Part shown: positions 3,931 to 63,709 of the stretch, piece by piece | How the letters are laid out: every line of letters begins with the position of its first letter | How positions within the stretch are numbered: position 1 is the first letter of the stretch | Assembly: GCA_950097015.1 (NCBI GenBank) | Contig: CATNEN010000038.1 | Location: forward strand, 35,216,001 to 35,280,000 | Direction: 5' to 3' | Origin: Macrostomum hystrix | Taxonomy: Eukaryota > Animalia > Platyhelminthes | Length of the DNA stretch: 64,000 nt | Position numbers and translations under genes: made by a program | Notes under the pieces: generated by a model | What the model saw: only the letters and a program-made list of their open reading frames with translations | Told to the model about the DNA's origin: nothing | The model's database searches: none

Positions 3931-3941
3931 ACCTGACGCAG

Positions 3942-5244: not shown

Positions 5245-5278
<34 letters not shown>

Positions 5279-8200: not shown

Positions 8201-11200
8201 CGGCAATGCCCATGCTGTTAGCCTTCTGATTTGCCCAACAGGTAATCGGAGACATGACCTGGCTAGGCATGGATCTGCCAAGAACCAGATTCGATTATCC
8301 CGATCGAGATCACAAAATTCTGCGCTGCGCTGTGGACGATGTGGCCATTGTGGTCTCACTGCTGTACAACATGATTCTGATTGTGCTGTGCACTCTGTAC
8401 GCCTTCAAGACTAGGAATATTCCTGAGAACTTCAACGAGGCCAAGTACATCGCCTTCACAATGTACTCAACCTGCATTGTGTGGCTCGCATTTATAGCCA
8501 TCTACTTCGGATCCTTGAGGAATTTCCGCGTGAGATTATTTGTTTTTTCACTCTTGTTACATTTAGATGTTCTGTCTAACAGTCTAGGAACCATGTCTAA
8601 CAGGTTAGGAACTGTGTCTAACAGGTTAGTAAATGTGTCTAACAGGTTAGGAACTGTATCTAACAGGTTAGTAAATGTGTCTAACAGGTTAGGAACTGTG
8701 TCTAACAGGTTAGTAAATGTGTCTAACAGGTTAGGAACTGTGTCTAACAGATTAGTAAATGTGTCTAACAGGTTAGGAACTGTATCTAACAGTTTTAGGA
8801 AATGTGTCTAACAGGTTAGGAACTGTGTCTAACAGATTAGTAAATGTGTCTAACAGGTTAGTAAATGTGTCTAACAGGTTAGGAACTGTGTCTAACAGGT
8901 TAGTAAATGGGTCTAACAGGTTAGGAACTGTGTCTAACAGGTTAGCAAATGTGTCTAACAGGTTAGAAAATGTGTCTAACAGGTTAGGAACTGTGTCTAA
9001 CAGGTTAGGAACTGTGTCTAACAGGTTAGTAAATGTGTCTAACAGGTTAGGAACTGTGTCTAACAGGTTAGAAAATGTGTCTAACAGGTTAGGAACTGTG
9101 TCTAACAGGTTAGTAAATGTGTCTAACAGGTTAGGAACTGTATCTAACAGTTTAAGTAAATGTGTCTAACATGTTAGGAACTGTGTCTAACAGGTTAGCA
9201 ACTGTGTCTAACTGAATGTGTCTAACATGTAAGGAAATGTCTAACAGGTTAGTAAATGTGTCTAACAGGTTTGCAACTGTGTCTAACTGAATGTGTCTAA
9301 CATGTAAAGAAGTGTGTCTAACAGAATGCGTCTAACATACTAGGGCCTGTGTCTAACCGTTTAAGAACACTATCCAGCATTTTTGAGCTGTGTTCCCAAA
9401 CAGCGACACGAGTGGTTTTGGACTCCGCCCAAACAGGCGAGTTTAAAGTAAAAAAATAAAATTTCGAACTTTATTTCAAAAACCCTTTCTTAAGCAAATT
9501 AGCACCAGAAGAAATTGGATTGCAAAAGCAGAAGTTCAGGAAACTGATCTAGAAAAAAGGACTCAAATTTAAAATTCTGTGGCGGTGTCTCACTCAGCTG
9601 GGATTAAAGGCGAGGGACCGCCCGTCCCTGTGACCTAGAAGCTTCACTATGCATCAAACGCTTGGACGGAAGTCAATTAGCTGAGAGGCTACCTCTCCCT
9701 GTTCGACGCAGAACAATGCTAAAAGTGCAAACAGTAGCCTTTGACAGAAAAAGCGAAGCGCCTGTCAGATTAGAGTGAGCTTATGCTCAGATTGAGCTTA
9801 TGCAAAAACTTTTCCGGAGTGCTTTTTCATCCACTATCCTACTCAGATGATGACACAAATGTCACACCAGCTTCTAAATTTGTCCATTCTGATGTGTTCT
9901 TTATACTCGTAGAGCATCAGTTGAATGATCTTAATTACAGGCAGCAAATTAGCCTGCTCTGCTACTTCGCGCATATTTTACAACAGATTATAAACAAATT
10001 TACCTGGTGTTGTGAACAAATAAATGGCTTTGAATGTGTCTAACAGGTTATGAATGTGTCTAACAGGTTATGAATGCGTCTAACAGGTTATGAATGTTTC
10101 TAACAGGTTATGAATGCGTCTAACAGGTTATGAATGCGTCCAACAGGTTATGAGTGCGTCTAACAGGTTATGAATGTGTCTAACAGGTTATTAATGTGTC
10201 CAACAGGTTATGAGTGCGTCTAACAGGTTATGAATGTTTCTAACAGGTTATGAATGTTTCTAACAGGTTATGAATGTGTCTAACAGGTTATGAAAGTTTC
10301 TAACAGGCTATGAATGCGTCTAACAGGTTATGAATGTTTCTAACAGGTTATGAATGTGTCCAACAGGTTATGAATGTGTCTAACAGGTTAGAAGCCAGTC
10401 TAATACCCAAAAGCCACAGAACATTGTGCTGAAAATCTCGCAGATCAAGCTGACTTCACTGTGCATGTGCATCAGCATCAGCGCGTCTGTCACAGTCGGC
10501 TGCATGTTTGTGCCCAAGATCTACATTGTGCTGTTCCAGCCTCATAAAAACGTCCGCCGCTCGAACAACACCGCCGGAGGAGGCGGCGTCGGCGGCGTCG
10601 GCAGCCAGACGGAGCGGCGGGGGCTGTTCTCGCCGACTAGGAAGCCGCTGCTGCTGGCCGAAGGACAGTGCAGTCGCAGCGAGGCCGCTTCGCCTTGCGT
10701 CAGGGACGCCTGCCATGAGCCGTCGACTTCGGCCGCAGCGAATGTGGCCGCTGACATCTCCGCTGAAGGCAGCGTCAAAGGAGCTGGCTTCGGTAGGGAA
10801 TTCTTGGGCGGGAAGTCGCATTTTTTCTCCCCTCTCAAAGCCCCGGTTGCTATGCCTTTGCTCCACTTTATTTTCCCAAAGCTAGCGTGGAATTGAATCC
10901 CAATTTTTTTCTGCTAATCCCCTCAATGCTAAAGATAATCCCAATGGCCAGCGGAGGCGACAACCGGAAGAAGCTCCGAAAATCGGGCAGTTCATCCTTT
11001 TCAACCGAGTCACCTGGTACATTGATGATGAGGCAACAATGACAGTCGATGCCCAACCTGCTGAAGAAGCGCATTGTAGGTGCCCCCTAGCAACTCCACT
11101 AATCTACTCAAGTCTGACTGCTCAACTATTCTCACTTAAAAATTATCTTTTAAGTTCCATCACGTCATTTACTTTCTTTTCATACTCATTGTTTAATCAA

Positions 11201-14614: not shown

Positions 14615-17600
14615 TCACACTCGATCTGTCTCGAAGCTCCTGTTGTCGTTGCCCTCGGTGATGGCCGGCGGGGCGGCTTTCATTTCGCCGTCATCGTGAC
14701 CGCCGGGGCCACGCTGGCTAGGAAAGCCGCTGTCCTTCTCGGTGTCTCGCCTCGAGAACTTGCTGCCGCCACTGCTAGTCGCCTCACGCTCCTAAATTAG
14801 TCGAAGGTCGTTGTGGATGATTTTACAGCTGGTAGAATGAAACACATTGAAATTAATTGTCTTTTTCATGGACATCTATTGTACCAAGAATCGAACTCCA
14901 AACGCTATGAAAATCCAGAAAGTGGGGTCTTCGACAAAATCGCTGAACATCTCGACGATATCTCTGACGTCGGACGGCTTTGAAAGTTAAGTTCATCGTA
15001 GTTATGGGTGAAAAATTTTGATTCATGTGGTGGACTTTCACGAAAATCGGTCATTCGGTATTCGAAATACACCGTGGTATTTTCCCAAGGGGGAAAATAG
15101 TGTGTTCTTTCTGCTGTTGATAAGATTACCTTAGCCTTGGGTGGGCAGCAGCAGAGAAGCCACGGGAATTTCTTCTCGAGAACGGCTCGAAATTTCGGAT
15201 GGCTCAGCGAGTAGATGATCGGATTGTAGATTGCTGAGGTCTTGGCAGCCAGAACCGGCAGCTCTGCGGTGTACGGGTTCAGATGGTCCCGCTTCCCAAT
15301 CAGGGATAGGAAGGCCACGATGGCGTACGGAGTCCAGCTGAGTATGAACAGCGAGATTGTGATCAGGGCGATCTTGGCCGTCTTCAGGTCGTTTTTTTGA
15401 TCGGCTACGGGGGTCGATTAAAAATACGCAGCTTTTTAAATACTAAAGTTAAATTTTTACTGTACGCCAATTAGCAATTTATACATATTTCTCATAAGTC
15501 AATTCAGAATGTTAATGTATCAATTCAGATTTCTCATAGATCAAAGCTCATTTCTCATCGATCAAAGCACATTTCCTGATAGATCAATGAAAATTTCTCG
15601 TAGATCAATGCACAATTCACATACATCAATGCACATTTCTCATGTCAATTCTCACCGGATTTCATGCTGTGGCCGCCCATCCTGGTGGCCATCTTGATCA
15701 GCTCCAGTTCGTGATTGCGAACGGCTCGTACAATTTTGTAATAGCAAAAGAAAATGATGGACAGCGGCAGCATAAAGCCGCAGGAGTACATCAGTCCGCT
15801 AAAGATCAGGTTGCCCTTGTCCTGGCTCAGGTAGTCAAAGGTGCAGGATGTCTGAAAGCCTTCGGGAACATAATAACCTGGAGGAAGAGGCAAAAAAATT
15901 GTGAACAGAAGTTTATATCAGTGTTTGTCTCGCATAACGGGCGAAGTGACGTAGCTTTCTAAAATTAGCATAAAAAGTGGGATTGGTTGGGACAGCGGCG
16001 TGAGGTGGGTGTCCGAATGCTGCAGCCAATAGAAGTGATGCTACATCTGCCGTGACAATTTCGTCATCAGACGTGACGTAATTTGATATAAATAGCATCC
16101 TAGGGCAGTTTATAGATAGAATGGGGGCGTGAGGCGGGCGTACGAATGTACATTTATGGCTGCAGCCAATGAGAAGTGAGCCAGGGTGCACAGTGCAGGC
16201 GACAAATTACCGTATCCGAAGAATGGCGGAATGGTCCAAAGCAGCGACAGCGACCAGGCCAGGAACACCATGACAGCGGCCCGGGTGTAAGTCAGCCGCT
16301 TCAACGCTTCGAACGGCTGGGCGATGACAAAGTAGCGATCCATGGAGATCAGCGCCAGCGTGTGGATCGATACCATGCCGAATACACCGCCCAGGAAGCC
16401 ATAGAGCTCACAGGCTGCTCACGGGAATCAGCGACAACTGGTTTGTGCCTTTGCCATACACAACAGTTTAAACTTGACTCAATAGAATGAGCATGCTCTA
16501 ACTCACCCAGCCTGCCCCAGGCCCAGCGCCCGTTGAAACTCGAGATGGTTAGCAGGGGGAAGCCCTGGATGGCCGAGAACGACAGGTCGGAGATTGCCAG
16601 ATTCACCAGGAAGAAGTTTGGCGGTGTGCGCAGCGCCTTCGTGCTGCAGTGGGATACGAAAGGTTCAGTTGGAATTGTTCAGCATCAGTTAACTCGCGAG
16701 CTAGCTGCCCGAACCTGTCTGCTCTGCCGTCTAATGCCCTGATTCTCCCCTTTCTTCTTCCTCTCCTTTTGAAATCCTAATCTCTTCCTTGAAATCCCAC
16801 TGTCTCTCTATTTGAAATCACACTCTTTTTCCTAAAATCCCACAGTCTCTCTTTGAAATCCCACTCTCTTCCTTTAAAATCCCACTCTCTCTCTCTTTAA
16901 AATCCCACTCTTTTCCCTGAAATCTTACTCTCTCTCTTTGAAATCCCACTCTCTCTCTTTGAAATCCCAATCTCTCTCTTTGAAATCCCACTCTCTTCCA
17001 TTAAAATCCCACTCTTTTCCCTGAAATCCCACTCTCTCTCTCTTTGAAATCCCACTCTCTCTCTCTTTGAAATCCCACTCTTTTCACTGAAATCCCACTC
17101 TTTTCACTGAAATCCCACTCTTTTCACTGAAATCCCACTCTTTTCACTGAAATCCCACTCTTTTCACGGAAATCCCACTCTTTTCACTGAAATCCCACTC
17201 TTTTCACTGAAATCCCACTCTTTTCACTGAAATCCCACTGTCTCTCTTTGAAATCGCAATGTCTCCCTTTGAAATCCTACTCTCTTTCTCTTTAAAATCC
17301 CACTCTTTTCCATGAAATCCCGCTGTCTCTCTTTGAAATCCCAATCTCTCTCTTTAAAATCCCACTCTCTCTCTCTTTGAAATCCCACTCTCTCTCTCTT
17401 TAAAATCCCACTCTCTCTCTCTTTGAAATCCCACTTTTTTCACTGAAATCCCACTCTTTTCACTGAAATCCCACTCTTTTCACTGAAATCCCACTCTTTT
17501 CACTGAAATCCCACTCTTTTCACTGAAATCCCACTCTTTTCACTGAAATCCCACTCTTTTCACTGAAATCCCACTCTTTTCACTGAAATCCCACTCTTTT

Positions 17601-17966
17601 CACTGAAATCCCACTCTTTTCACTGAAATCCCACTCTTTTCACTGAAATCCCACTCTTTTCACTGAAATCCCACTGTCTCTCTTTGAAATCCCACTCTCT
17701 CTTTAAAATCCCACTCTCTTCCCTTCTACTCACGTCATGAAGATAAACAGGACCAGAAGGTTGCCAATGTCGCCAATGATGCCGACAACGCTGATGTAGA
17801 TGCCCACCAGGTAGTGGTGCAGCTCCGGCACAGGCGGGAACTGGCGCCAGAACGGATGGATGATGGCCTCGAACTCCGGGTCCCAGGCCCAGAAGCGCTG
17901 GTCGGTGGTGGTGCCATTCTGGCCCCAGGCGGCCAAGCTGGAAGGTGTGAAGCCGCTGGTTGTCAT
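14615..17966 (-). CDS. Rhabdomeric (Gq-coupled) opsin, ~415 aa
   Basis: Exons 17966-17734 (HPFWRQFPP), 16643-16507 (LRTPPNFFLVNLAISD), 16414-16211 (CELYG..MDRY), 15877-15656 (YVPEGFQTSCTFDY, E181 counterion), 15404-15130 (SWTPY..AAKTSAIYNPIIYSLSHPKFR: retinal Lys296, NPxxY, HPK r-opsin motif, CCC), 14791-14615 (tail). All junctions GT-AG and phase-consistent. Confidence 0.96.
16770..17722. repeat. ~20-bp intronic minisatellite (GAAATCCCACTCTTTTCACT)n in opsin intron 1
   Basis: Tandem units reaching to within about 12 nt of the donor at 17733. Confidence 0.95.
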
Positions 17967-20415: not shown

Positions 20416-22758
20416 TCAATTCAAGCAGCTGCTGACCCTGCTCCAATAGCTGACCGTGCGCTCAATCTTGCAACCCTTGGGACCGCCATTGTGAATCCTT
20501 GCGTAGTCCTGACAATGTCATCAGGTTATAGTATATGTTAGCATTCACTTCTTCATAGTTCGTTTGTCCAATTTCAAAAGGAACTTGCAATCAATAAATC
20601 AATTCCCACCTCAAAGGTTGGCTCCTGACCGCCAGTGCAATACTTGCCGTAGCGCTCGAAATAGTTAAGCATAGTTCTCTTTGAGCAGTCCATGTTGTTG
20701 GCCCCCGTGGTGCAGGTCATCCAGTCTGAAATTAAAAAATAGACAAATAATGGGAAACATGTCACACATTCATACTCACTGTCACACATTCATACTGTCA
20801 CACATTCATACTCACTGTCACACATTCATACTCACTGTCACACATTCATACTCACTGTCACGCATTCACACTCACTGTCACACATTCACACTCACTGTCA
20901 CACATTCATACTCACTGTCACACATTCATACTCACTGTCACACATTTATACTCACTGTCACACATTCATACTGACTGTCACGCATTCACACTCACTGTCA
21001 CACATTCATACTCACTGTCACACATTCATACTCACTGTCACACATTCATACTCACTGTCACACATTCATACTCACTGTCACACATTCATACTCACTGTCA
21101 CACATTCATACTCACTGTCACACATTCATACTCACTGTCACACATTCATACTGACTGTAACACATTCACACTCACTGTCACACATTCATACTGTCACACA
21201 TTCATACTCACTGTCACACATTCATACTGACTGTCACGCATTCACACTCACTGTCACACATTCATACTCACTGTCACACATTCATACTCACTGTCACACA
21301 TTCATACTGTCACACATTCATACTCACTGTCACACATTCATACTCACTGTCACACATTCATACTCACTGTCACACATTCATACTCACTGTCACTCATTCA
21401 TACTCACTGTCACACATTCATACTCACTGTCACACATTCATACTCACTGTCACACATTCATACTCACTTTTACACATTCACACCCATTGTATTAGTGTGT
21501 ACCTCATTGTCACAAATTCATGCTTACTGTCACACATTCACACTCACTGTCAGAAACAAAGCTAGTCAAACAATCTGAGAACATGCTCACCGCCGCCAAT
21601 TGTCTGCCGAGCAAACTCTGACGCATCTTGCCAATACACACTCTTGATCTGGTAGGGGCCGCAAGACAAAGTGTCCGGATCATTCACACAGCCGATTTCG
21701 CGGTTACAATTTGACTCAGCTTCGCAGATGCAGCGAAAGAATTTGTCTGGCAGATCTGGCACACCTGAGAATGTATTAAGAATTGTGCTCTTGTAAATCA
21801 GAGCACATTTACTCCGTGTCTAAACTCTCCAATCTTCGTCAAACAAACTCCACTTCCTGTGTTTAACATCTCCTACCTTTGTCTAACATAACCATTCCCT
21901 GGGTCTAACATCTCCAATCCATGTCTAACATATCCATCTATAATCTGCCTAACACCTATACTACATTTCTAACTCCTTAACTCTATATCTAACACCTCAA
22001 CTCCATGTCTGACATCTTGACCCCATGTCTCACACCTATACTACTTGTCAAACACCTCAACTCCATGTCTAACATCTTGACCCCATGTCTCACACCTATA
22101 CTACTTGTCTAACACCTCAACTCCATGTCTAACATTTTAAGCCCATGTCTCACACCTATACTACTTGTCTAACACCTCAACTCCATGTCTAACATTTTTA
22201 GCCCATGTCTCACACCTATACTACTTATCTAACACCCCAACTCCATGTCTAACATCTTAACCCCATGTCTCACACCTATAATACTTGTCTAACACCTCAA
22301 CTCCATGTCTAACATCTTAACCCTATGTCTCACACCTATACTACTTGTCTAACACCTCAACTCCATGTCTAACATTTTAAGCCTATGTCTCACACCTATA
22401 CTACTTGTCTAACACCTCAACTCCATGTCTAACATCTTAACCCCATGTCTCACACCTATACTACTTGTCTAACACCTCAACTCCATGTCTAACATCTTAA
22501 CCTCATGTCTCACACCTATACTACTTGTCTAACACCTCAACTCCATGTCTAACATCTTAACCCCATGTCTCACACCTATACTACTTGTCTAACACCTAAA
22601 CTCCATGTCTTCTAACACCTAAAATTCACGCAAAGCACATAACATGCCAAAAATCGCATGTTTATATGAAAGTTTTACTCACCAAGCACAAAATGATTGC
22701 CAATAAAAGCAATATATACTGCGAAAATCAAAGCAACTGCACCTGCAATTCGAGCCAT
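20416..22758 (-). CDS. Invertebrate (i-type) lysozyme / destabilase, 152 aa, secreted
   Basis: Exons 22758-22683 (signal peptide MARIAGAVALIFAVYIAFIG), 21764-21591 (CICEAESNC..GCVND..LSCGPYQIKSVYWQD), 20725-20610 (WMTC..C..YFERY), 20508-20416 (DYARIHNGGPKGC..YWSRVSSC*). AATAAA on the minus strand at 20282-20287. Confidence 0.95.
20758..21552. repeat. 20-bp intronic minisatellite (CACATTCATACTCACTGTCA)n
   Basis: Fills lysozyme intron 2. Confidence 0.95.
21900..22620. repeat. 60-bp compound intronic minisatellite (TCTAACA/TCTCACA cores)
   Basis: 60-bp periodicity visible as aligned lines; fills lysozyme intron 1. Confidence 0.93.
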
Positions 22759-25447: not shown

Positions 25448-25843
25448 TCATCCGAAGCGCATCACATTGGGCCCGTAGCTCGAGCCGCCGCCGCCGCCGC
25501 CGCCACCGCGCTGCTGATGCTCGGCCTGCCTCGCGTGGTGCAGGTTTCTCAGCAGCGGCGAGATGAAGCTGAAGCCGCCGCGCCGTAGCCGCGGCAGCCC
25601 CCAGTCCGCCTGATCATCGCCGTCTTCTTCATCAGAGCTGCTGCTCGACTCGGCCAAGTCTGTGAGAGCGGCCGCCACAGCCAGACAGTCGGCAAAGTCA
25701 ACAGCCGAATGGCGCCAGTGAAACCGGAGGCAGTGATCGGCCGGCGATGCGGACACCGTCGAGGTCGCAGTCGGGGCCGCTGAGCCACAGGCCGGCAGGC
25801 AGCAGATCCCCACAAGGAGCAAAGTGACAGCTGAACGCATCAT
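25448..25843 (-). CDS. Neuropeptide precursor with a single C-terminal RFamide (..SYGPNVMRF-G-stop), 131 aa
   Basis: Signal peptide MMRSAVTLLLVGICCLPACGS, Cys-pair pro-region, acidic stretch, RR site, then peptide ending RFG* (Gly amide donor); AATAAA on minus strand at ~25306-25311. Start placed at Met 25843, not the ORF-track start. Confidence 0.88.
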   Translation of the reverse strand: MMRSAVTLLLVGICCLPACGSAAPTATSTVSASPADHCLRFHWRHSAVDFADCLAVAAALTDLAESSSSSDEEDGDDQADWGLPRLRRGGFSFISPLLRNLHHARQAEHQQRGGGGGGGGSSYGPNVMRFG

Positions 25844-43140: not shown

Positions 43141-46100
43141 TTAGACATTGATCTTGCTAAGTCGGACAATCTCCTCGTCGATTAGGCGATCTTTGCGCCT
43201 ACGGCAGGGCACCAGCCAGAGCCAGGGGGAATCGTAGCCGAACACTCGCGAAGCCGATTCGAACACGTTCATCGGACGGCTGCGCTGCGGCGGTTCATCC
43301 TGCGGCAGTTGACGCCGGCGAACAATCTCCAACAGTTCCAAGGTGGTTCGGCTCTCCCTGATGCCGATGCACTGCACAGCCAGGAGCATTGACATGCCAA
43401 CTAGTGTGATGAAGCTGACTAATATCGCGCTGCCTAGCCGGAGAGAGCGATGCGACGGACAGGAGACTGTCAGCGGTGTCAATGACTTAAACAGAGAATC
43501 GGCTAACAGCGAAGTCGAAGCACTGATGGATGCCGCAGTACAGGTAGGTGAATAATAGCCCAGTGTATCGCGCCACAGGTGATACTGGGCTGCTAGGCAA
43601 AGCAAAACACCGTAGAATAAAAGCAGGATGAAACGCCATCTGTTGTGCTCGCCGACACAGTTGAGAACAAACGGGCAGTGATGGTCCATTTCTAGGACGC
43701 AACGGCCGCATCTGGGTTAGAAGAATAGTGAGGATTACACTATAAGTATATTAGCACCTTATTACCCCCCCAATGACCTGTGACTGAGTAGCTAATTATG
43801 CCTCTGACCTGACCTCAGTCTGGGTAGTTCATTCCCCAATCCCCAGTCTGATTTATCCCCAGTCTAGTATGAGTAGATTACTAGCACACTAAGCCCCCTT
43901 GGGGGGCACAACTGTTCAGACAAAAATATTGTGTAATGCAGAAGGACAAACCACACCTAAAAGCAAACAAAAACGAAAACTCTACTTCGTTAGTATTAAT
44001 TTCCTTGATTGCGAATATACGTGATTGCGATTCAACAAGAATTAGAATTCTCACTAAATATAAAAATAGTCAGTCTGAGCTTGAATACATCAGAGATATC
44101 CGGTCTGTACACCAACAGCCCAATTGGGGCAAAATTACACAAGTAACTTACATTTGATACAACTCAGCTAAATCCCCAATCTAGTATGAGTAGATTACTA
44201 TCTGGAATTTCAAGCCTGAGTAGATCATTATCCACAATCCCCAGTCTGAGCAGATCATTATCCACAATCCCCAGTCTGAGCAGATCATTATCCAAAATCC
44301 CCAGTCTGAGCAGATCATTATCCGCAATCCCCAGTCTGAGCAGATCATTATCCACAATCCCCAGTCTGAGCAGATCATTATCCACAATCCCCAGTCTGAG
44401 CAGATCATTATCCAAAATCCCCAGTCTGAGCAGATCATTATCCACAATCCCCAGTATGAGCAGATCATTATCCAAAATCCCCAGTCTGAGCAGATCATTA
44501 TCCACAATCCCCAGTCTGAGCAGATCATTATCCACAATCCCCAGTCTGAGCAGATCATTATCCACAATCCCCAGTCTGAGCAGATCATTATCCACAATCC
44601 CCAGTCTGAGCAGATCATTATCCACAATCCCCAGTCTGAGCAGATCATTATCCACAATCCCCAGTCTGAGCAGATCATTATCCACAATCCCCAGTCTGAG
44701 CAGATCATTATCCACAATCCCCAGTCTGAGCAGATCATTATGCGCAATCCCCAGTCTGAGCAGATCATTATCCACAATCCCCAGTCTGAGCAGATCATTA
44801 TCCACAATCCCCAGTCTGAGCAGATCATTATCCACAATCCCCAGTCTGAGCAGATCATTATCCAAAATCCCCAGTCTGAGCAGATCATTATCCACAATCC
44901 CCAGTCTGAGCAGATCATTATCCACAATCCCCAGTCTGAGCAGATCATTATCCACAATCCCCAGTCTGAGCAGATCATTATCCACAATCCCCAGTCTGAG
45001 CAGATCATTATCCACAATCCCCAGTCTGAGCAGATCATTATCCACAATCCCCAGTCTGAGCAGATCATTATCCACAATCCCCAGTCTGAGCAGATCATTA
45101 TCCACAATCCCCAGTCTGAGCAGATCATTATCCACAATCCCCAGTCTGAGCAGATCATTATCCACAATCCCCAGTCTGAGCAGATCATTATCCACAATCC
45201 CCAGTCTGAGCAGATCATTATGCGCAATCCCCAGTCTGAGCAGATCATTATCCACTATCCCCAGTCTGAGCAGATCATTATCCACAATCCCTAGTCTGAG
45301 CAGATCATTATCCACAATCCCCAGTCTGAGCAGATCATTATGCACAATCCCCAGTCTGAGCAGATCATTATCCACAATCCCCAGTCTGAGCAGATCATTA
45401 TCCAAAATCCCCAGTCTGAGCAGATCATTATCCACAATCCCCAGTCTGAGCAGATCATTATCCGCAATCCCCAGTCTGAGCAGATCATTATCCACAATCC
45501 CCAGTCTGAGCAGATCATTATCCACAATCCCCAGTCTGAGCAGATCATTATGCGCAATCCCTAGTCTGAGCAGATCATTATCCACAATCCCCAGTCTGAG
45601 CAGATCATTATCCACAATCCCCAGTCTGAGCAGATCATTATCCACAATCCCCAGTCTGAGCAGATCATTATCCACAATCCCCAGTCTGAGCAGATCATTA
45701 TCCACAATCCCCAGTCTGAGCAGATCATTATCCACAATCCCCAGTCTGAGCAGATCATTATCCAAAATCCCCAGTCTGAGCAGATCATTATCCACAATCC
45801 CCAGTCTGAGCAGATCATTATCCAAAATCCCCAGTCTGAGCAGATCATTATCCACAATCCCCAGTCTGAGCAGATCATTATCCAAAATCCCCAGTCTGAG
45901 CAGATCATTATCCACAATCCCCAGTATGAGCAGATCATTATCCGCAATCCCCAGTCTGAGCAGATCATTATCCACAATCCCCAGTCTGAGCAGATCATTA
46001 TCCACAATCCCCAGTCTGAGCAGATCATTATCCACAATCCCCAGTCTGAGCAGATCATTATCCACAATCCCCAGTCTGAGCAGATCATTATCCACAATCC

Positions 46101-49100
46101 CCAGTCTGAGCAGATCATTATCCACAATCCCCAGTCTGAGCAGATCATTATCCACAATCCCCAGTCTGAGCAGATCATTATCCACAATCCCCAGTCTGAG
46201 CAGATCATTATCCACAATCCCCAGTCTGAGCAGATCATTATCCACAATCCCCAGTCTGAGCAGATCATTATGCGCAATCCCCAGTCTGAGCAGATCATTA
46301 TCCACAATCCCCAGTCTGAGCAGATCATTATCCACAATCCCCAGTCTGAGCAGATCATTATCCACAATCCCCAGTCTGAGCAGATCATTATCCAAAATCC
46401 CCAGTCTGAGCAGATCATTATCCACAATCCCCAGTCTGAGCAGATCATTATCCACAATCCCCAGTCTGAGCAGATCATTATCCACAATCCCCAGTCTGAG
46501 CAGATCATTATCCACAATCCCCAGTCTGAGCAGATCATTATCCACAATCCCCAGTCTGAGCAGATCATTATCCACAATCCCCAGTCTGAGCAGATCATTA
46601 TCCACAATCCCCAGTCTGAGCAGATCATTATCCACAATCCCCAGTCTGAGCAGATCATTATCCACAATCCCCAGTCTGAGCAGATCATTATCCACAATCC
46701 CCAGTCTGAGCAGATCATTATGCGCAATCCCCAGTCTGAGCAGATCATTATCCACAATCCCCAGTCTGAGCAGATCATTATCCACAATCCCCAGTCTGAG
46801 CAGATCATTATCCACAATCCCCAGTCTGAGCAGATCATTATCCACAATCCCCAGTCTGAGCAGATCATTATCCACAATCCCCAGTCTGAGCAGATCATTA
46901 TCCACAATCCCCAGTCTGAGCAGATCATTATCCACAATCCCCAGTCTGAGCAGATCATTATCCACAATCCCCAGTCTGAGCAGATCATTATGCGCAATCC
47001 CCAGTCTGAGCAGATCATTATGCGCAATCCCTAGTCTGAGCAGATCATTATCCACAATCCCCAGTCTGAGCAGATCATTATGCACAATCCCCAGTCTGAG
47101 CAGATCATTATCCACAATCCCCAGTCTGAGCAGATCATTATCCAAAATCCCCAGTCTGAGCAGATCATTATCCACAATCCCCAGTCTGAGCAGATCATTA
47201 TCCACAATCCCCAGTCTGAGCAGATCATTATCCACAATCCCCAGTCTGAGCAGATCATTATCCACAATCCCCAGTCTGAGCAGATCATTATCCACAATCC
47301 CCAGTCTGAGCAGATCATTATCCACAATCCCCAGTCTGAGCAGATCATTATCCACAATCCCCAGTCTGAGCAGATCATTATCCACAATCCCCAGTCTGAG
47401 CAGATCATTATCCACAATCCCCAGTATGAGTAGGTCATTATCCGCAATCCCCAGTCCGAGTAGCTAATTATCCGCAATTCCCAGTCCGAGTAGCTAATTA
47501 TCCGCAATCCCCAGTCCGAGTAGCTAATTATCCGCAATTCCCAGTCCGAGTAGCTAATTATCCGCAATTCCCAGTCCGAGTAGCTAATTATCCGCAATCC
47601 CCAGTCCGAGTAGCTAATTATCCGCAATTCCCAGTCCGAGTAGCTAATTATCCGCAATCCCCAGTCCGAGTAGCTAATTATCCGCAATTCCCAGTCCGAG
47701 TAGCTAATTATCCGCAATCCCTAGTCAGAGTAGCTAATTATCCGCAATCCCCAGTCCGAGTAGCTAATTATCCGCAATCCCCAGTCCGAGTAGCTAATTA
47801 TCCGCAATTCCCAGTCCGAGTAGCTAATTATCCGCAATCCCTAGTCAGAGTAGCTAATTATCCGCAATCCCCAGTCCGAGTAGCTAATTATCCGCAATTC
47901 CCAGTCCGAGTAGCTAATTATCCGCAATTCCCAGTCCGAGTAGCTAATTATCCGCAATTCCCAGTCCGAGTAGCTAATTATCCGCAATCCCCAGTCCGAG
48001 TAGCTAATTATCCGCAATCCCTAGTCCGAGTAGCTAATTATCCGCAATCCCCAGTCCGAGTAGCTAATTATCCGCAATTCCCAGTCCGAGTAGCTAATTA
48101 TCCGCAATTCCCAGTCCGAGTAGCTAATTATCCGCAATCCCCAGTCCGAGTAGCTAATTATCCGCAATCCCTAGTCAGAGTAGCTAATTATCCGCAATCC
48201 CCAGTCCGAGTAGCTAATTATCCGCAATAATTAGTCAGAGTAGCTAATTATCCGCAATCCCCAGTCCGAGTAGCTAATTATCCGCAATTCCCAGTCCGAG
48301 TAGCTAATTATCCGCAATTCCCAGTCCGAGTAGCTAATTATCCGCAATCCCCAGTCCGAGTAGCTAATTATCCGCAATCCCTAGTCAGAGTAGCTAATTA
48401 TCCGCAATCCCCAGTCCGAGTAGCTAATTATCCGCAATTCCCAGTCCGAGTAGCTAATTATCCGCAATTCCCAGTCCGAGTAGCTAATTATCCGCAATTC
48501 CCAGTCCGAGTAGCTAATTATCCGCAATTCCCAGTCCGAGTAGCTAATTATCCGCAATCCCCAGTCCGAGTAGGTCATTATCCGCAATCCCCAGTCCGAG
48601 TAGCTAATTATCCGCAATCCCCAGTCCGAGTAGCTAATTATCCGCAATTCCCAGTCCGAGTAGCTAATTATCCGCAATCCCCAGTCCGAGTAGGTCATTA
48701 TCCGCAATCCCCAGTCCGAGTAGGTCATTATCCGCAATCCCCAGTCCGAGTAGGTCATTATCCGCAATCCCCAGTCCGAGTAGGTCATTATCCGCAATCC
48801 CCAGTCCGAGTAGGTCATTACTTGGAGCAGTGATGTGCTCGAGACGGCCGTTCCCTATTGCATTTGGGACAGAACTCCATGCTAGGCCGGTCGCGTATCA
48901 GAAATCTGGCAATATAACTCTGCAGATCAGCATCGCTCACGATATAGCCTGGATCTGTGCGGCTAGCTAGTAGGAAGCAGGCCATGGTCATGACTAGAAC
49001 GAATGCGTACCAGCCAAGCGATAAAACACTGAACTCAGCCAGGCGGGGAAGCATAACTAGGCGGGGCACTTCAATAGCACCGTAGAGCCAAACAAACCAA

Positions 49101-49141
49101 ACAGCAAAGTAGCTGAGCACATCTTGCCAGGCTATTCTCAT
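43141..49141 (-). CDS. DHHC-type palmitoyltransferase (ZDHHC family), 296 aa, two exons
   Basis: Exon 49141-48822 (TM1-2, TDPG, FCPKCNRERPSRAHHCS) + exon 43711-43141 (K-CGRCVLEMDHHCPFVLNCVGEHN, TM3-4, TTLE, WLWLVP). Phase-2 GT-AG intron of 5110 bp with CTAAC branch point before CCAG. Confidence 0.95.
44180..48820. repeat. 30-bp satellite (~4.6 kb) filling the DHHC intron; two subtypes switching at ~47430
   Basis: CAGATCATTATCCACAATCCCCAGTCTGAG, then TAGCTAATTATCCGCAATCCCCAGTCCGAG. Confidence 0.98.
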
Positions 49142-49481
49142 GGTGAGCAGCTGTGACAGGGTCTTCAGCGAATTTTAATATTCTATCTCTATTTTAAGCG
49201 ATTCAATTTTTACAGTTTTTTAGCTGAAAGAAGTGATTAGGTCTAATTTAGTATTGATCAACCAAACGCACAATTTACAAATGTAATTTTGTCATAGTTT
49301 CTTGCTACAAATTACAATGCTTTTCAAAAAATGGTTGATTAAGATAACTATCCAAAATATACTGCTTTTTAGTATTTTTGTGGCATATAATTGTATAAAA
49401 ATTTGTACTAAAAATTACATAAAATACAACATTAAAATCTTATTAAAAGAAACAAAGGAAATATAACCCTTACATTTTCAA

Positions 49482-50440
49482 CAGTGGGGGGCCTAAAAAT
49501 GGAAAATACACACTGTTTGTGTGTACTTTTTGATGTACTATATTTTTTCACTGTTAAGTGTAACATTTTATGGAAAGTCTGGAGCTTGTTGTTGTTTTTG
49601 TTGTAAGAAAATGAAGACCTGTTTGGCCAAGGAGTTTGTTAATTTGCCATGGCCATGCAGCTGGGAAAGTTGAAAACTTTCATCCAGCAAGCACTCAGGC
49701 ACCTCAACAATACTGGAGCAGCATAGGATATGCCTCATGACCTGGCAGGGCACCAAAAACTGACCGCTGACTGGATCAACAAATTTTGTGAATGTCCAAG
49801 TCTAACTGTCAGTTCACTGCTGTGGGCATCAGCCATAAACTTCTTGTATCCAGGAATGTCCAGCTGCACCCCATGACTGTCTGCCACCACATGGTAGCTA
49901 CTGGACTGCATGACCAAATTGCTAGGAAAAAGCCATTCATCTCCAACAAAACCTGAAGCATTGCTTGAACTAGAGAAAGTAGCACACCAGGGGACTGGAT
50001 CAAGGTCATCTGGAGTGACAAGAGCAAGTTTTCCTGCACTGGTTCTGATGGCCGCCCGAATGTGTGCTACCAAGCTAGTGAGGAATTTGATCCCAAGTGC
50101 ACCATTGGTACTGTGAAGCATGGAGGTGACAGTGTCCTGGTGTGGGATGCATTTTCCACAGCTGTACCTGGGGCCAACAACTTGCATTGAGGGCATCATG
50201 GACATTCAGCAGTACCGTGACATACTCATCAGCCACTGACCAGAAGTAGTAGATGTACTGCCACTGAGTGCAGTGAACAGCTGGCAGTTTCAGCAGGCAA
50301 TGATCCCAAGCACACCTCCAAGAATGTGAAGGCATGGCTTGCTGAGAACAATATCTGTACAATAAACTGGCCAGCAATGTCACCAGACCTCAAACCAATT
50401 AAGAATCTATGGAACTGGGTTGAGTGGGACATCTAAAAAC
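49482..50440 (+). mobile_element. Decayed Tc1/mariner DNA transposon (transposase pseudogene)
   Basis: CAGTG-like left end; broken transposase motifs RKKPFIS (~49924), KHGGDSVLVWDAF (~50116), FQQ-NDPKHTS (frameshifted, ~50288), WPAMSPDLKPIKNLW (~50368; catalytic Glu changed to Lys); stops and frameshifts; no right TIR seen. Confidence 0.85.
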
Positions 50441-53091
50441 AGTAAAACTATGCTTTAAACTGTACTTCCCACTCAAACAAATCAGCTTTTTGAACTAAAA
50501 ACTGATGAAATGTTAACCAAAATACTATACAACTAACTTAAAATAATGTCTTAACAAGTTTTACATTACATTTACTGCTTGAATTTAGCTTAAGGACCAG
50601 TGTGGCTAATAAATATATTTTTCTTAGTTATTAATTCATTGTGTACCACAGTACATTGGCCAATGCAATCACAAGCACCTGGATACAAAGCATGTAACCA
50701 GAGGAAGTCAACAGCAAAATGGAAATTCATCAAATTGTTAGCAAAACTGGACCTAGAGTGCTATGTAATCTTTAGACTTGAAGATTTCCATGTAGTATTG
50801 TCCACACACTTTATGATTTGAAATTACTATGACATTACTGCTTTTAATTGTCTTTTAACACTATGGATATCAGTAGGCCCTAGCATTATTTATTCAATTC
50901 CTAGTCTGCTGTCCTTTTACATAGTAGGACCATAATCTAAAGCTGAAGGCAGCCACTGAAGCCCTGATTATTAGTATATTACATATTTCAATTGACATCA
51001 TGAACACTGAGAATAACAATGGTAGTGCAAATACCTCCAAAAGTACAAATATTGACACAAATTATGTCTAGGAGACAAGTTTATAAGTGACACAGTTAAA
51101 ACATTTTGAGTTTGCTACACTTCACAGAACTAAATGTTAAAAGGTTCACATTTACTAAGAAATAAAAGGCCCCATCACATAGCCATCAACTGCACAAATA
51201 AACTGTATAGAGAAAACATCTTTTCACTTGGTGTCCCTTTGGTCCAAGCTGGCTCACCTATCTTACCAGACAGACCTAGTCTGCAATTACTAGGCCTAGT
51301 AATTCTACATTTCCATAATCCTACAAATGTAGGCCTACTTGGCCACCCAGCAACAGATGGCCAGAAAAACAGTTTAGGCCTAACAAAACGATCTGAAAAG
51401 AGTGCTGCCTACTCATTCTTATTGGGCCTATACTCGTAGGCCCCAATGTTATATGTAGAGATAGATAATCTCTACGTAATAGATACGCACTACGTTCTAC
51501 CTAAAATATAGCATTTATATAGCAACTCATATAGTTAGTACGCGGCTAGAACAGCTACATAAAAAGTCCTGCATCGTATTTGTAGCTATCTGAAGAAAAA
51601 GTTACGTCCAGATGCAGTGTGTCTTAGTTCAAATTGTACGGAATCGAGGTCGAGTTTCCATTGGACAGTAAAACAATTTTTTATTTACATTTTAACTGCT
51701 CGCATGCCGTGCTGTATAAAAATTAATAAACGTATAGTAATATGTTATTGATTTTTAATAAAGGCATCAATTTTTTTCGCAGTTTAGTTATTACTTTTTT
51801 CGCTTTTACAGGCGCCAATACGACCTCGATACAATCTTAGAATCACCGCAAATGTATTATCTCGTCATTTATTTTTATTATTACTATTAGTCTATCACCA
51901 TTGTACTATTTTCATTTTTACAATATTAACTATTTGTTTAGGTGCTGCTTTTTTAGTAAAGGAAATTTAATAATTAGAAAATTGATTTCGTTTTCTTCTT
52001 CTGCGTGACGCTTCGTGCAGATCCAATATTCGTACGAAATTCTAGGCTTTTAAGTTATTTCCTGGAGTGTTTCACATGATAATTTGTGATTTACGAGCCG
52101 AAAGTGGGATAGGGTGCTCCTTCTTACAGTACTTAAAATGCAAATGTTTTACATTGTAATAGAAATCAGGGACAACCTAGTTTAAGTAGGTAGTTTAAGT
52201 AGTCCCTGATACAATTAACTTTTACAGACTTCTCGACCTACCTTTTGTCTCCAGAATCTCTTAAATGCAAGGGTTTAATATATGTCTATTTATGCTATAG
52301 ATTTTGTGGTCAGGACCAACAGAAAGTTTTACATCCCGTTCCTATTCATCATTGCCTTGATACGGCTGCCACTGAACATCGAATAATTTACAAGTTTTAA
52401 GATAAATAGAGTCCTGAAGATTGGAGAGTAAAGCCCAGTACTGAATACTTCTATTCTATACGCTGTAACGATTAAACTAAAATCGATGCCCTTCAGTAAT
52501 TTAGTTTACGTGGAGAGCGTCTTTTAAACAGTTTTAAATAAATTTAACGGAAGCTGTAAAATCTGTATGCAAAATACTATGTAACAGATCACATAAAATT
52601 AGTAACGTGGTTTATGTTTATTATGTTTTTGTGCATCATTATTTTTGCATATTAAAATGCAGTTCAATCAATACTGCTAAATTTTTCGTTTCATTAGTTT
52701 GTAGCTGACTTGCTACAAATGTTGCTAGTTGAATTCAAGAGTCGGCAAAAGCTTGAGCTTGTTTATTTAGTTTTGACAGGTTTTGTCGTGGGGTTACATT
52801 CAAGTCTTAACCGGGCGACTGTACCTAACGATAACAAGGGTCATAGACAATTAGCGGTAAGGGGGAAAACAAATGTACCATTTGAATCTTTAAATATAAA
52901 GAGTTAAAAGAAAGAAGTGAATTTGCTGCTACAAGTTCTTTCTTATCACTACTCATTAGGTTTCAAATATTCAAAGCAACAAAGTAAGAGACACAAAGCT
53001 CATTTATTCTTAATTTATAATTCTATAAACTAAAGCTGCGCTCCTATAACTTCAAGGCACAACTTCATCGGCGGCTGGAACTTCCGTTGAC

Positions 53092-53862
53092 ATGCAGCAG
53101 GCACCAAGACAAGCGTTCTCTCTCCAAGCAGCTGCAGGAGGCGGCTATCAGTTCCTTAGTGCTCACACCGCAGACCTATCTGGGAATGCTACAGTGGAAA
53201 AGCAGAGCATTAGCTGTCTGGAGACGCTAACCCTGGACAAACTGGCCGCTGTGCCGCCTCAGGTGCAGAAACAGATGATTGCTGATCGACTGTACCCGCT
53301 AGTTAAAGATGTGCACTCTCACCTGGCTGGCAAGATCACTGGCATGTTGCTTGCCAATCTAGACAATGTCGAACTGTTGAACATACTCGAGTCTCACGAG
53401 GCACTGAAGACCAAGGTGAGAACAAAAAAATTGAGCTTTTATTAGTCATAAGTTGCTCATATAAAAAATTTGTGGCAGAACAAGATTGCTTAAAAATTTT
53501 ACGGAAGATTAAAGTAAGGCTATTATTTTAATATACTAATTTCATGGAGATTAATGACATGACGATAAAATGTTTAGAGCTTTCATTAAAGCACAATTCG
53601 AAAGTTACGAAACGTCTGGCGCAATTACATATTTGATTACCAAATGAATCTTGTTTAAAAGTTAGTCTATTTCTGTGGCTTATTTTAACGGCTTGCGATT
53701 GAGTTTTCTGGACAATCATTATTTTCCAATTAGCAATACGTATCACTGTTTTCAAAAGTTAATTGTAAAAATCGTGTCAAAACAATAAATATTCAACATA
53801 ATTTTCATGTGCAGGTAAATGAAGCTGAAAATCTGTTGCGCAAAAAAACAAAAAATCAGTGA
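53092..53862 (+). CDS. MLLE/PABC-domain protein (poly(A)-binding protein C-terminal domain), ~123 aa from the first Met; no RRM exons seen
   Basis: Exon 53092-53415 ([49 protein letters not shown]|GTGAGA) + exon 53815-53862 ([15 protein letters not shown]), completing the PABC KVxEA helix. An upstream acceptor at 53056 means more 5' exons are possible. Confidence 0.8.
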
Positions 53863-58555: not shown

Positions 58556-58720
58556 TGTTCAGTCCATGAACTGGGGAGGCCGGCCGACTCACTTATCCAA
58601 ATTTCTTCCCCTATAGACACTGCGATCCATTTTACAGACGTGTGACCTGAATCAGTTGGAAATGAAGTGTCCTGCTCAATGAAAATCTCCTTCTTATTGA
58701 CTAAAATTCGAACTTCGGAA
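58555..58720 (-). mobile_element. Degenerate CORE-type SINE family C fragment
   Basis: CTGTTCAGTCCATGAACTGGGGA..CCATTTTACAG..AAGTGTCCTGCTCAA resembles 61001-61125. Confidence 0.55.
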
Positions 58721-59047
58721 CTCTCGTATATAGGATTTCTAAATGCCTAATACAATGGGTGATCTAATTCACCAAGGATCACTAGTGATTCATCTAATTC
58801 GAGTGTAAGCAGTAGTGTAATATTTTCATATTTAATCCTTGGAGCTTAGTATAACGATAGTTTGTAATAAATTAATTTTGAAAGATTTCTGAAAGCATGC
58901 AGGATCGAGTTCTCGGTTGATATACGAGTATATATAATTTGATAATATTACTTTGAACCTTCAGCTAAAATGAATAATAAATATGTCAGAGTCGTGGGCG
59001 ATTTCAGTCAGTTTCTGTTGCGGTCAGCGGCGGCAACAGTTGCTGCT

Positions 59048-59200
59048 CTACTTGCCACTGCGAAACCTTACACGCAGCCATCTGCTCAGCAGAAACTTCT
59101 TCTCAGCTTCGAAAGCCTTCGCCTCCGACGTCTCCTGGCTGGGTCTGGCGACTGCCAGAGCTGCCCAGATCAGGAGTCCGAGAACGAGCTGCCACTTCAT
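59048..59200 (-). CDS. 50-aa secreted prepropeptide; predicted mature amidated cationic 13-mer FLLSRWLRVRFRS-NH2 (antimicrobial/toxin-like)
   Basis: Manual translation MKWQLVLGLLIWAALAVA-RPSQETSEAKAFEAE-KK-FLLSRWLRVRFRS-GK*. ATCATG start context, no upstream ATG in the ~80-nt leader, TATATA about 100 bp upstream. Absent from the ORF track (<60 aa). Confidence 0.78.
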   Translation of the reverse strand: MKWQLVLGLLIWAALAVARPSQETSEAKAFEAEKKFLLSRWLRVRFRSGK

Positions 59201-59295
59201 GATGTAGCTGCTGCTGCTACTGCAGATGCTCGATGAAGCGGATGGTAGGAGCTGAGAGATTGGCTTGGATGTCTACTTGGCGCTCGGGGACCTGG

Positions 59296-59302
59296 TATAT
59301 AA
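59296..59302 (-). promoter_or_regulatory. Candidate TATA box of the 50-aa prepropeptide gene
   Basis: Minus strand GCTTATATACC in a non-AT-rich context, ~100 bp upstream of ATG 59200. Confidence 0.5.
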
Positions 59303-60973: not shown

Positions 60974-61206
60974 GCCGCAGCCCATTGCGGCTGCGTACAG
61001 CTGTTCAGTCCATGGACTGGGGGGACGCCACACCCACCTTCAATTATCCCAGCTGATGCTGGTACCCATTTAACAGCTGGGTGAACTGAAGCAATGCAGA
61101 GTTAAGTGTCTTGCTAAAGGACACAAATTGTTCCAGTGGAGTCGGGAATCGAACCCCCCGACCTTCAAGTCGTTAGTCCGACGCCCTAACCACTAGGCTA
61201 CAGCGT
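60974..61206 (-). mobile_element. CORE-type tRNA-derived SINE family C
   Basis: Minus strand head TAGCCTAGTGG..GGTTCGATTCCC, then TGTGTCCTTTAGCAAGACACTTAAC..CTTCAGTT..CAGCTGTTAAATGGG, resembling the MIR/CORE domain. Confidence 0.85.
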
Positions 61207-61327
61207 CATAACTTAACTTAGCTGCGGGGGGCATCCTTCGGATGCAGCGGGGAGGCGTTGCCGCCCATTCCGCTAGCCCCTGGCGACCACGGGCAACTAA
61301 AGCTGCGGTGTCGCGCAGGGGGATCAA

Positions 61328-62400: not shown

Positions 62401-62680
62401 AAAATATAAAATAAGTATAAAAAGAAACAATTTAATAAATAAAATACAATCAGCAAATACAGTCCACATGGTTACATGATGAAATTTTGTGAGCAGAACA
62501 ATTATGCCTACACTGGTGGCTTTTGCCCCCAGACATCCCGGCGAGAATCCTTGAATATCTCGACGATGCTCGACTTATATCTCGACTTTCGCGGCAAATG
62601 GTTGAATATTTTAGAAAATAGAGAAAAAACAAAGATATTGTTATTGGCCGTTAATTAAAAAAAAAAAAATTTTTTCAGGC

Positions 62681-63709
62681 ATGGATGGCAACTACAGTAC
62701 CAGCAGTCTGGGACCGCAGAACACCACAGATGCCACCGAGCTGGATGGCGTCGACCCTCCGTGGTTGAAGTTCGCCGACACATTCTTTCTCATTGTTGGC
62801 ATTTGCGCAGGCGTCTGCGGCAACCTGCTGACAATATTCTCAGTGACTCGCTTCAAACAACTCAAGTCGGCCACCAACTTCCTGGTCGTGAACATCGGCT
62901 TGGCCGACCTTCTTGTCAGCGCCTATTCGATCCCCACCATTCTGGCTAACAGGCTGGCTGAGAACAACATTTTCCACAACATCATTTGCGGCGTGAACGC
63001 CTACGCGCTTTTCACAGCCGCTGGCGTGTCGAACTTCAGCTTCACGCTAATCGCTGTTGCTAGGAACCTGTGTGTGCTGCAGCGAGCCATTTATCAGCGG
63101 CACTTCACAGATGCCAAGGTGCTGTGCTACTGTGCAGCTTGCTGGGTGATCTGGCTCAGTGTCAGCGGCCTGTTCTGGTCGCAAGGTGGCTTCGGCTACA
63201 TCCCGGAGGTGTTCATCTGCTTCTACTACGACAACGATTCGCCTTTCGCTTTGAGCTTCCTGCTCACTTTGCTGGGGGTGGCGGTGCCATCGCTGCTGGC
63301 GGCCGGTTGCTACATCTTTCTCTTCTTTCGACTGTTCCGCCTGAAAAGGGAGACATCGATTTCAATCTCTGGCGATGCTGGTGGAACAACCAGCGTCAGC
63401 AAGGAGTGGAAGGCCCTGGCCCCAGTGCTGACTGCCTACATTGTGTTCAACCTGTGCTGGGGACCGTACAGCATTCATGTTTACATTGACAAATTCGTGG
63501 CCCCAGTGGGCAGAATACCACACAAAGTGATCACATGGCTGGCCGTATTCAATTCTACGCTGAACCCAATTATCTACGGCCTGATGAACTCGCACTTCCG
63601 GCGATGCTACATGCGCCTTGTTCGCGCCGCTTTCGCTTACTGCGTATGCAAAAGATCCACAGCTATTGCGCCATTGGAGACAGGAGATTGCTCCACTGCA
63701 CGAAGCTGA
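62681..63709 (+). CDS. Intronless class A (rhodopsin-like) GPCR, melatonin-receptor/Tre1-like orphan, 342 aa
   Basis: 7 TM segments; GN (TM1), LADL (TM2), TM3/ECL2 Cys pair, CWGPY (TM6), NSTLNPIIYG..N..FR (TM7/H8), N-terminal glycosylation sequons. DRY position reads ARN; no opsin Lys296. Confidence 0.92.
   Translation: MDGNYSTSSLGPQNTTDATELDGVDPPWLKFADTFFLIVGICAGVCGNLLTIFSVTRFKQLKSATNFLVVNIGLADLLVSAYSIPTILANRLAENNIFHNIICGVNAYALFTAAGVSNFSFTLIAVARNLCVLQRAIYQRHFTDAKVLCYCAACWVIWLSVSGLFWSQGGFGYIPEVFICFYYDNDSPFALSFLLTLLGVAVPSLLAAGCYIFLFFRLFRLKRETSISISGDAGGTTSVSKEWKALAPVLTAYIVFNLCWGPYSIHVYIDKFVAPVGRIPHKVITWLAVFNSTLNPIIYGLMNSHFRRCYMRLVRAAFAYCVCKRSTAIAPLETGDCSTARS

What the first reader, a model, noticed from the sequence alone, without database searches (positions are those of the whole stretch)
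59048..59302. Hidden 50-codon gene with temporin-like precursor layout: a candidate amidated cationic antimicrobial/toxin peptide
Seen in sequence: a minus-strand ORF too short for the ORF track, MKWQLVLGLLIWAALAVA|RPSQETSEAKAFEAE|KK|FLLSRWLRVRFRS|GK*, with a candidate TATA box ~100 bp upstream and an ATG-free leader. Established knowledge: signal peptide + acidic spacer + dibasic site + short peptide + GK-stop is how frog temporins (typically 13 aa, often starting FL, amidated via a GK end) and various venom peptides are encoded. Inference: the product FLLSRWLRVRFRS-NH2 is 13 aa with 4 Arg, no acidic residues, Trp/Phe/Leu-rich and an alternating RVRFR end, the chemistry of a membrane-active host-defence peptide. 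It does not end in an RF/RY/W-amide neuropeptide motif I recognise. I know of no such family in flatworm-like invertebrates, so it may be a convergent, undescribed defence peptide system.
Basis: partly seen in the sequence, partly recalled or inferred. Interest (0 to 1): 0.88.

Follow-up and report, generated by a model that had tools for sequence, protein, structure and literature searches.

The report
Orphan amidated-peptide gene in a flatworm
A 50-codon reading frame in a Macrostomum-like flatworm has the layout of a secreted-peptide precursor and likely yields a 13-residue, positively charged, amidated peptide with no detected relatives; it is more likely a nerve or gland signal than a frog-style antibiotic peptide, but neither role is tested.

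Summary
The ORF is there (minus strand, 59200-59048, 50 aa) and is probably a real gene. The full layout arose in 8 of 400 simulated windows, and in 1 of 400 with an acidic spacer. Its codon score beats all 179 non-coding control windows. The host is Macrostomum-like (neighbouring mGluR exon 86% identical to M. lignano). No homologue was found. The internal GT is probably not a used donor: only 4 of 1365 non-coding frames after a GT end in G-K/R-stop, and no coding-like second exon was found. The temporin comparison is not diagnostic. KK-peptide-GK-stop also ends 2 of 51 planarian neuropeptide prohormones, and several planarian neuropeptides are as Arg-dense. The 13-mer is not a clear amphipathic helix (moment 0.29 versus 0.553 for temporin-FL). 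Flatworm antimicrobial peptides with acidic propieces are already known from tapeworms. Best reading: an orphan prohormone-type signalling peptide (0.45). A defence peptide stays open (0.25). No expression or activity data were obtained.

The parts
59296..59301 (-). TATA-like box, 96-101 nt upstream of the ATG (inferred promoter element)
   Evidence: one base off the strict consensus; the opsin gene in the window has a TATA about 75 nt before its ATG
59201..59270 (-). inferred ATG-free 5' leader; the start site is a guess, about 30 nt below the TATA-like box
   Evidence: only upstream ATG at 59314
59147..59200 (-). predicted signal peptide, residues 1-18
   Evidence: hydrophobic core mean KD 2.64; (-3,-1) rule allows a cut after 16 or 18; codon score +0.34 bits per codon
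59102..59146 (-). spacer, residues 19-33, net charge -2
59096..59101 (-). Lys-Lys, predicted convertase site
   Evidence: KK sites also occur in planarian prohormones
59057..59095 (-). predicted mature 13-mer FLLSRWLRVRFRS (4 Arg, about 1735 Da as the amide)
59048..59056 (-). Gly-Lys-stop, predicted amidation signal
   Evidence: 4 of 1365 non-coding frames after a GT end this way
59066..59071 (-). donor-like GT hexamer inside the ORF, probably unused
   Evidence: the 7 codons after it score -2.08; no good downstream exon
58831..58836 (-). ATTAAA, candidate poly(A) signal 212 nt after the stop (weak)
   Evidence: first AWTAAA on this strand downstream of the stop; the motif is common, 137 matches in the window

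Best explanation
The sequence holds a 50-codon frame with a hydrophobic start, a short spacer, Lys-Lys, a 13-residue Arg-rich stretch and Gly-Lys-stop; it is likely a single-exon prohormone gene whose predicted product, FLLSRWLRVRFRS-amide, would most likely be released from neurons or gland cells as a signal acting on a receptor. Shown: the frame, its motifs, its codon bias and the host clade. Inferred from general prohormone biology: signal removal after Ala18, a cut at KK by a PC2-type convertase (a PC2 homologue is reported in M. lignano, PMC4490696), trimming of the last Lys, and conversion of Gly to the amide. Untested: transcription, processing, cell type and receptor.
For: Real gene: (score 12.3; 0 of 179 non-coding stop-free windows reach it, maximum 2.97; GC3 0.70 against 0.55-0.86 in the exons). 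Unspliced. Signalling role: the layout is shared with planarian prohormones (KK-peptide-GK-stop in 2 of 51; G-K/R-stop in 7 of 51), 13-15-residue amidated peptides and similar Arg density occur among them. Five of the 9 Atlas rows shown are neuropeptide or hormone precursor families (PDH, DH31, NPF, PrRP, UTS2B) and none is an AMP family (all under 0.9, a lead only). No paralogue in the window. A second single-copy, intronless-looking RFamide precursor lies in the same window, so single-copy precursors occur in this genome.
Against: No match to any known neuropeptide: 0 hits for six motifs in the planarian supplements and none on reading Table S5. None of the amidated peptides in that table ends in Ser, and this precursor is shorter than the shortest of the 51 (57 aa, counted by eye). 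Net charge +4 from side chains, with Trp, Phe and Leu, fits a membrane-active peptide; the N-terminal 8 residues have a helical moment of 0.56 and the C-terminal 8 a strand moment of 0.70. The last 7 codons score like non-coding DNA (-2.08; 58 of 1327 exon windows are this low; likelihood ratio 2.8 toward non-coding). The overlapping plus-strand frame is open and scores higher (20.5) than the peptide frame, whereas in 11 of 11 control exons that shadow frame scored lower and had stops.
Confidence: 0.45

Rival explanations
1. The same gene and processing, but the amidated 13-mer would be a membrane-active defence peptide (antimicrobial or anti-predator) secreted into mucus or the gut, convergent in layout with temporins.
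For: Four Arg, no acidic residue, mean hydrophobicity 0.62; single copy behind an acidic spacer; Ser-amide end unlike the planarian neuropeptides. Temporin precursors have an acidic spacer, a dibasic site, a 13-mer and Gly-Lys (PMC8560897 passages). Tapeworms have AMPs with acidic propieces and Arg-rich peptides.
Against: Whole-peptide helical moment 0.29, not above shuffles (P 0.54), and strand moment P 0.30; temporin-FL is listed at H 1.004 and moment 0.553 (the paper's scale was not checked against mine). No paralogue in the window, while the Hymenolepis fAMP-LP-17 group has several near-consecutive gene ids. No AMP family among the Atlas rows shown. No related sequence among the six rows hit by motif search of the flatworm AMP-candidate table. 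Composition is a poor predictor: 12 of 20 predicted helminth AMPs were inactive in PMC10414684.
Confidence: 0.25
2. A fast-evolving reproductive gland product (prostate or seminal-fluid peptide) that would act on the mating partner.
For: M. lignano has 76 prostate-limited transcripts; 38 of 65 with an ORF carry a signal peptide and several have no homologue (PMC5977470 passages). Planarian prohormones are also expressed in copulatory glands.
Against: No sequence link: 0 motif hits in the two supplements held for that paper (10,448 characters, which may not hold protein sequences). Nothing in the sequence points to the tail region.
Confidence: 0.12
3. The frame is the first exon of a spliced gene. 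A donor at 59071 would replace the last 7 codons; alternatively a split inside the Arg codon of R-V-R-F, the conserved NPY/NPF intron position, would join an F-G-K/R exon.
For: GT-A-A-G donor-like site; codon score falls from about +0.33 to -0.30 per codon after it; an acceptor-like AG ends at 58965; NPY genes carry an intron in that Arg codon (PMC2953531).
Against: The nearest acceptor gives 30 codons at -0.53 per codon and GC3 0.30. None of 135 acceptor/phase candidates between 59030 and 53450 outside tandem arrays is both longer than 5 codons and coding-like. The NPF exon-2 pattern has 8 matches in the window, only one on the minus strand, at 16706-16717, beyond the DHHC and lysozyme genes. 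A G-K-stop after a GT arises in 4 of 1365 non-coding frames. The strength of the donor was not scored.
Confidence: 0.09
4. Not a functional gene: a chance or decayed frame, or the shadow of a plus-strand frame.
For: No homologue anywhere; many windows are scanned; the plus-strand frame 58946-59233 is open for 96 codons and scores higher.
Against: 1 to 8 of 400 simulated windows give the layout; TATA-like box and ATG-free leader on the minus strand; the plus frames have no Pfam match and begin in DNA of 23-45% GC; the shadow frame shares third codon positions, so its score is not independent.
Confidence: 0.09

Closest known systems
Planarian prohormones Smed-spp-1, spp-2, ppl-1 (PMC2953531 Table S5, read in full)
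   Same: Signal, acidic spacer, KK site, short basic/hydrophobic peptide, G-K-stop end.
   Different: These carry several related copies, are much longer, and their amides end in Met or Leu; no sequence similarity to the 13-mer.
Frog temporins (temporin-FL; PMC8560897 passages)
   Same: Signal + acidic spacer + dibasic site + 13-mer starting with Phe + Gly-Lys.
   Different: Temporins: Lys-Arg site, net 0 to +3, helical, a conserved frog N-terminal region. Here: KK, +4 from side chains, weak helical moment, no homology.
Tapeworm AMPs fAMP-LP-17, fAMP-LP-5 and mesco-1/2/3 (PMC10414684, PMC11546468)
   Same: Flatworm origin; signal + acidic propiece + Arg-rich hydrophobic peptide; two of the three mesco genes are described as intronless.
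   Different: Precursors of 109-147 aa in the fAMP-LP-17, -26, -34 and -40 rows seen, peptides of about 22-40 aa, mesco charge +11 to +13, an AGW-RR-type junction in most of those rows, no G-K amidation end, several paralogues.
NPY/NPF family (planarian npy-1 to -11)
   Same: Single amidated peptide near the C-terminus; an R-x-R-F motif is present (RVRF).
   Different: RVRF is followed by RSG, not G-KR; no GRPRF/Y; no second exon of the NPF type nearby; no Pfam Hormone_3 match.

Membership tests
Temporins | mature peptide of 10-14 residues with a Gly-Lys amidation end | tested here: met
   13 residues + GK-stop; definition from PMC8560897
Temporins | net charge 0 to +3 | tested here: not met
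   +4 from side chains alone
Temporins | amphipathic alpha-helix | tested here: inconclusive
   computed moment 0.29, shuffle P 0.54; no structure measured
Temporins | homology to the conserved frog precursor N-terminus; Lys-Arg site | tested here: not met
   0 Pfam families at E<=1; 0 phmmer hits at E<=0.001; the site is KK
Temporins | antimicrobial activity | not testable with these tools
   needs synthetic peptide
NPY/NPF | C-terminal RxRF/Y-amide | tested here: not met
   RVRF is followed by RSGK
NPY/NPF | intron in the Arg codon, second exon starting F/Y-G-K/R | tested here: not met
   no matching exon before the next genes
Flatworm peptide prohormones (npp/spp type) | signal peptide | tested here: met
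   hydrophobicity and (-3,-1) rule only; SignalP not run
Flatworm peptide prohormones (npp/spp type) | dibasic cleavage site and Gly amidation donor | tested here: met
   compared with Table S5
Flatworm peptide prohormones (npp/spp type) | sequence match to a named planarian peptide family | tested here: not met
   and reading of all 51 entries; the M. lignano peptide list in McVeigh 2009 was not held
Flatworm peptide prohormones (npp/spp type) | neural or gland expression; peptide seen by mass spectrometry | not testable with these tools
   no reads could be laid on the locus
Tapeworm linear AMPs (fAMP-LP-17, mesco) | long acidic propiece, AGW-RR junction, 22-40-residue peptide | tested here: not met
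   15-residue spacer of net -2, KK junction, 13-mer

The most novel reading that the evidence does not exclude
A free-living flatworm makes a temporin-sized, amidated, Arg/Trp-rich antimicrobial peptide from a 50-residue precursor, arrived at independently of frogs and missed by gene annotation because of its size; it would be the first member of a hidden defence-peptide family in Macrostomum.
Probability: 0.25. Interest if true: 0.62.

Novelty: new member of a known kind. Interest (0 to 1): 0.38.

Why it matters
If real, it is an unannotated peptide gene in a genus used to study regeneration and reproduction, and it shows that 50-codon prepropeptide genes escape the protein databases. As a signalling peptide it adds one orphan ligand, of modest interest. 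As a defence peptide it would give free-living flatworms a short amidated AMP, where the flatworm AMPs with measured activity in the two papers read come from tapeworms. A 13-mer is cheap to make, so the question is easy to test.

Tried and rejected
Homologue searches found nothing: word-seeded search of 27-88-residue proteins, phmmer on 1.84 billion representatives, exact look-up, Pfam, PDB sequences at E<=10, metagenome contigs. A conserved 13-mer inside a diverged 50-mer could be missed by all of them, so this is no evidence of absence in M. lignano. The neighbouring RFamide precursor also gave no Pfam hit at E<=0.01 and no metagenome hit. RNA runs: no RNA holder listed. No whole genome is held, so paralogues outside the window and synteny were not examined. 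Earlier findings: 5 look-ups, all empty. Rfam at E<=1 on 56500-62700: 0. ARAGORN: 0 tRNA genes. Full-text search for six peptide motifs gave 3 unrelated papers; searches on Macrostomum with neuropeptide or AMP terms listed no paper whose title or abstract start describes this peptide. PMC2749192 (McVeigh 2009, cited) was not held and may list a Macrostomum relative. Of the 343 M. lignano mentions in the flatworm AMP-candidate table I saw only motif-search rows and 30 of 123 'Prioritised' rows. No structure or complex prediction was run: a 13-mer without an alignment would not inform. Rejected: temporin membership, NPF membership, the nearest acceptor as a coding exon, nesting in the MLLE gene (no continuation exon matched my pattern; left open).

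Full report
Observation. A TATA-like hexamer lies at 59301..59296, the leader holds no ATG, and the first AWTAAA downstream is at 58836..58831 (a common motif, weak evidence). The locus is unique sequence between a 56-bp tandem array (57217-58493) and an 18-bp array (61325-62400).

Host. The mGluR exon at 6522-7550 is 86% identical to a Macrostomum lignano protein, and the first non-Macrostomum hits are at 42-49%. The host is therefore inferred to be a Macrostomum-like free-living flatworm, probably not M. lignano itself. No genome is held.

Is it a gene? In 400 order-3 Markov simulations of the window's 35,078 non-repeat bases, an ORF with a hydrophobic start, a dibasic site, 4-30 residues and G-K/R-stop arose 8 times, once with an acidic spacer. 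A synonymous-codon score trained on 1393 codons of neighbouring exons gives 12.3; none of 179 stop-free non-coding windows reaches it (maximum 2.97), and 6 of 39 in-sample exon windows score lower. Against: the plus-strand frame over the same DNA is open and scores 20.5. It shares third codon positions, so it is not independent, but in all 11 control exons that frame scored lower than the sense frame and had stops. It has no Pfam match. I put the chance that the minus-strand ORF is not a gene at about 0.09.

Is it spliced? A GT at 59071 looks like a donor, and the 7 codons after it score -2.08, which 58 of 1327 exon windows match or undercut (likelihood ratio 2.8 toward non-coding). On the other side, only 4 of 1365 non-coding frames that start at a GT end in G-K/R-stop, against 7 of 51 planarian prohormones (counted by eye). 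The nearest acceptor (58965) gives an AT-rich, non-coding-like frame, and none of 135 downstream candidates is both longer than 5 codons and coding-like. The R-V-R-F motif suggested an NPF gene with the conserved intron in the Arg codon (PMC2953531, passages), but the only minus-strand match to an NPF second exon is 42 kb away, past two other genes. Donor strength was not scored. The unspliced form is favoured.

Relatives. None was found, and none in the window. These searches have little power for a 13-residue conserved core. The Atlas gave only scores under 0.9; 5 of the 9 rows shown are neuropeptide or hormone precursors and none is an AMP family, a lead only.

Mechanism. Shown: the motifs. 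Inferred from established prohormone biology: secretion, a cut after Ala18, a convertase cut at KK, trimming of the last Lys and amidation, giving FLLSRWLRVRFRS-amide of about 1735 Da. A neural PC2 homologue is reported in M. lignano (PMC4490696, passages).

Signal or defence? The layout does not decide it. Temporin-FL has signal, acidic spacer, Lys-Arg, a 13-mer and Gly-Lys (PMC8560897, passages). Smed-spp-1 and spp-2 likewise end KK-peptide-GK-stop (PMC2953531 Table S5, read whole). Composition does not decide it either: 4 basic residues in 13 (0.31) matches GLRILRMamide and AVRLMRLamide (0.29) and AKYFRLamide (0.33). The whole peptide's helical moment is 0.29 (shuffle P 0.54) and its strand moment 0.40 (P 0.30), against 0.553 listed for temporin-FL. 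For defence: the N-terminal octamer alone has a helical moment of 0.56, no amidated peptide in the planarian table ends in Ser, the precursor is shorter than all 51 there, and it is single-copy. That table came from methods that favour multi-copy precursors, and this window holds another single-copy precursor ending in an RFamide, so single copy is weak evidence. I commit to a signalling peptide at 0.45, defence 0.25, reproductive gland product 0.12, spliced 0.09, no gene 0.09.

What is known. Flatworm AMPs are not unknown. PMC10414684 (passages; parts of supplement S5) reports fAMP-LP-5 and fAMP-LP-17 from tapeworms with antibacterial activity and shows precursors with long acidic propieces. 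PMC11546468 (passages) reports mesco-1 to -3. They are longer and lack a G-K amidation end. A motif search of S5 hit six unrelated rows. Full-text searches found no mention of the peptide and no listing that describes it (listings only). McVeigh 2009, which may list Macrostomum peptides, was not held. For PMC5977470 and PMC10468722 I read passages only, plus a motif search of two supplements of the former.

Verdict. It is a new, family-less member of a known kind (small amidated-peptide precursor). It is not a temporin and not an NPF. Its function is open, with signalling ahead of defence. Interest 0.38; 0.62 if the defence reading holds.

Noticed in passing
window 25843..25448 (-): A second intronless-looking prepropeptide ORF of 131 aa: signal, two Cys, acidic stretch, RR site and a Gly-rich peptide ending NVMRF-G-stop (an RFamide), with AATAAA at 25311-25306. 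Codon score +0.40 per codon. Atlas top scores 0.88-0.90, mostly neuropeptide precursors; no Pfam hit at E<=0.01 and no metagenome relative. Likely an unnamed neuropeptide gene.
   Followed up: partly
window 21819..20577 (-): Exons of an i-type lysozyme (Destabilase), an immune or digestive gene, 37 kb from the peptide ORF; a tandem array fills the intron between them.
   Followed up: partly
window 17966..15050 (-): A multi-exon rhodopsin-family gene that reads like a rhabdomeric opsin (7tm_1; the opsin label is from recalled motifs), with a TATA box about 75 nt upstream.
   Followed up: partly
window 3933..10900 (+), 49142..43141 (-), 62681..63709 (+), 53050..53445 (+): mGluR, DHHC palmitoyltransferase, an intronless rhodopsin-type GPCR whose only relative at E<=1e-20 is 36% identical, and an MLLE-domain exon whose other exons I did not find.
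   Followed up: partly
whole window: About 45% of the window is tandem minisatellite, much of it inside introns and often starting within a few bases of an exon end; several arrays share a short core near the mGluR and lysozyme genes.
   Followed up: no
window 61200..61000 (-): A stretch that reads like a tRNA-headed SINE (recalled resemblance; ARAGORN and Rfam found nothing). A 22-nt piece at its end recurs at 58555-58576 and 27663-27684.
   Followed up: no
window 49969..50433 (+): Broken Tc1/mariner-type transposase fragments (DDE_3 match in the second piece).
   Followed up: no
window 58946..59233 (+): A 96-codon stop-free frame antisense to the peptide ORF; no Pfam match; unexplained, probably a shadow frame.
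   Followed up: partly
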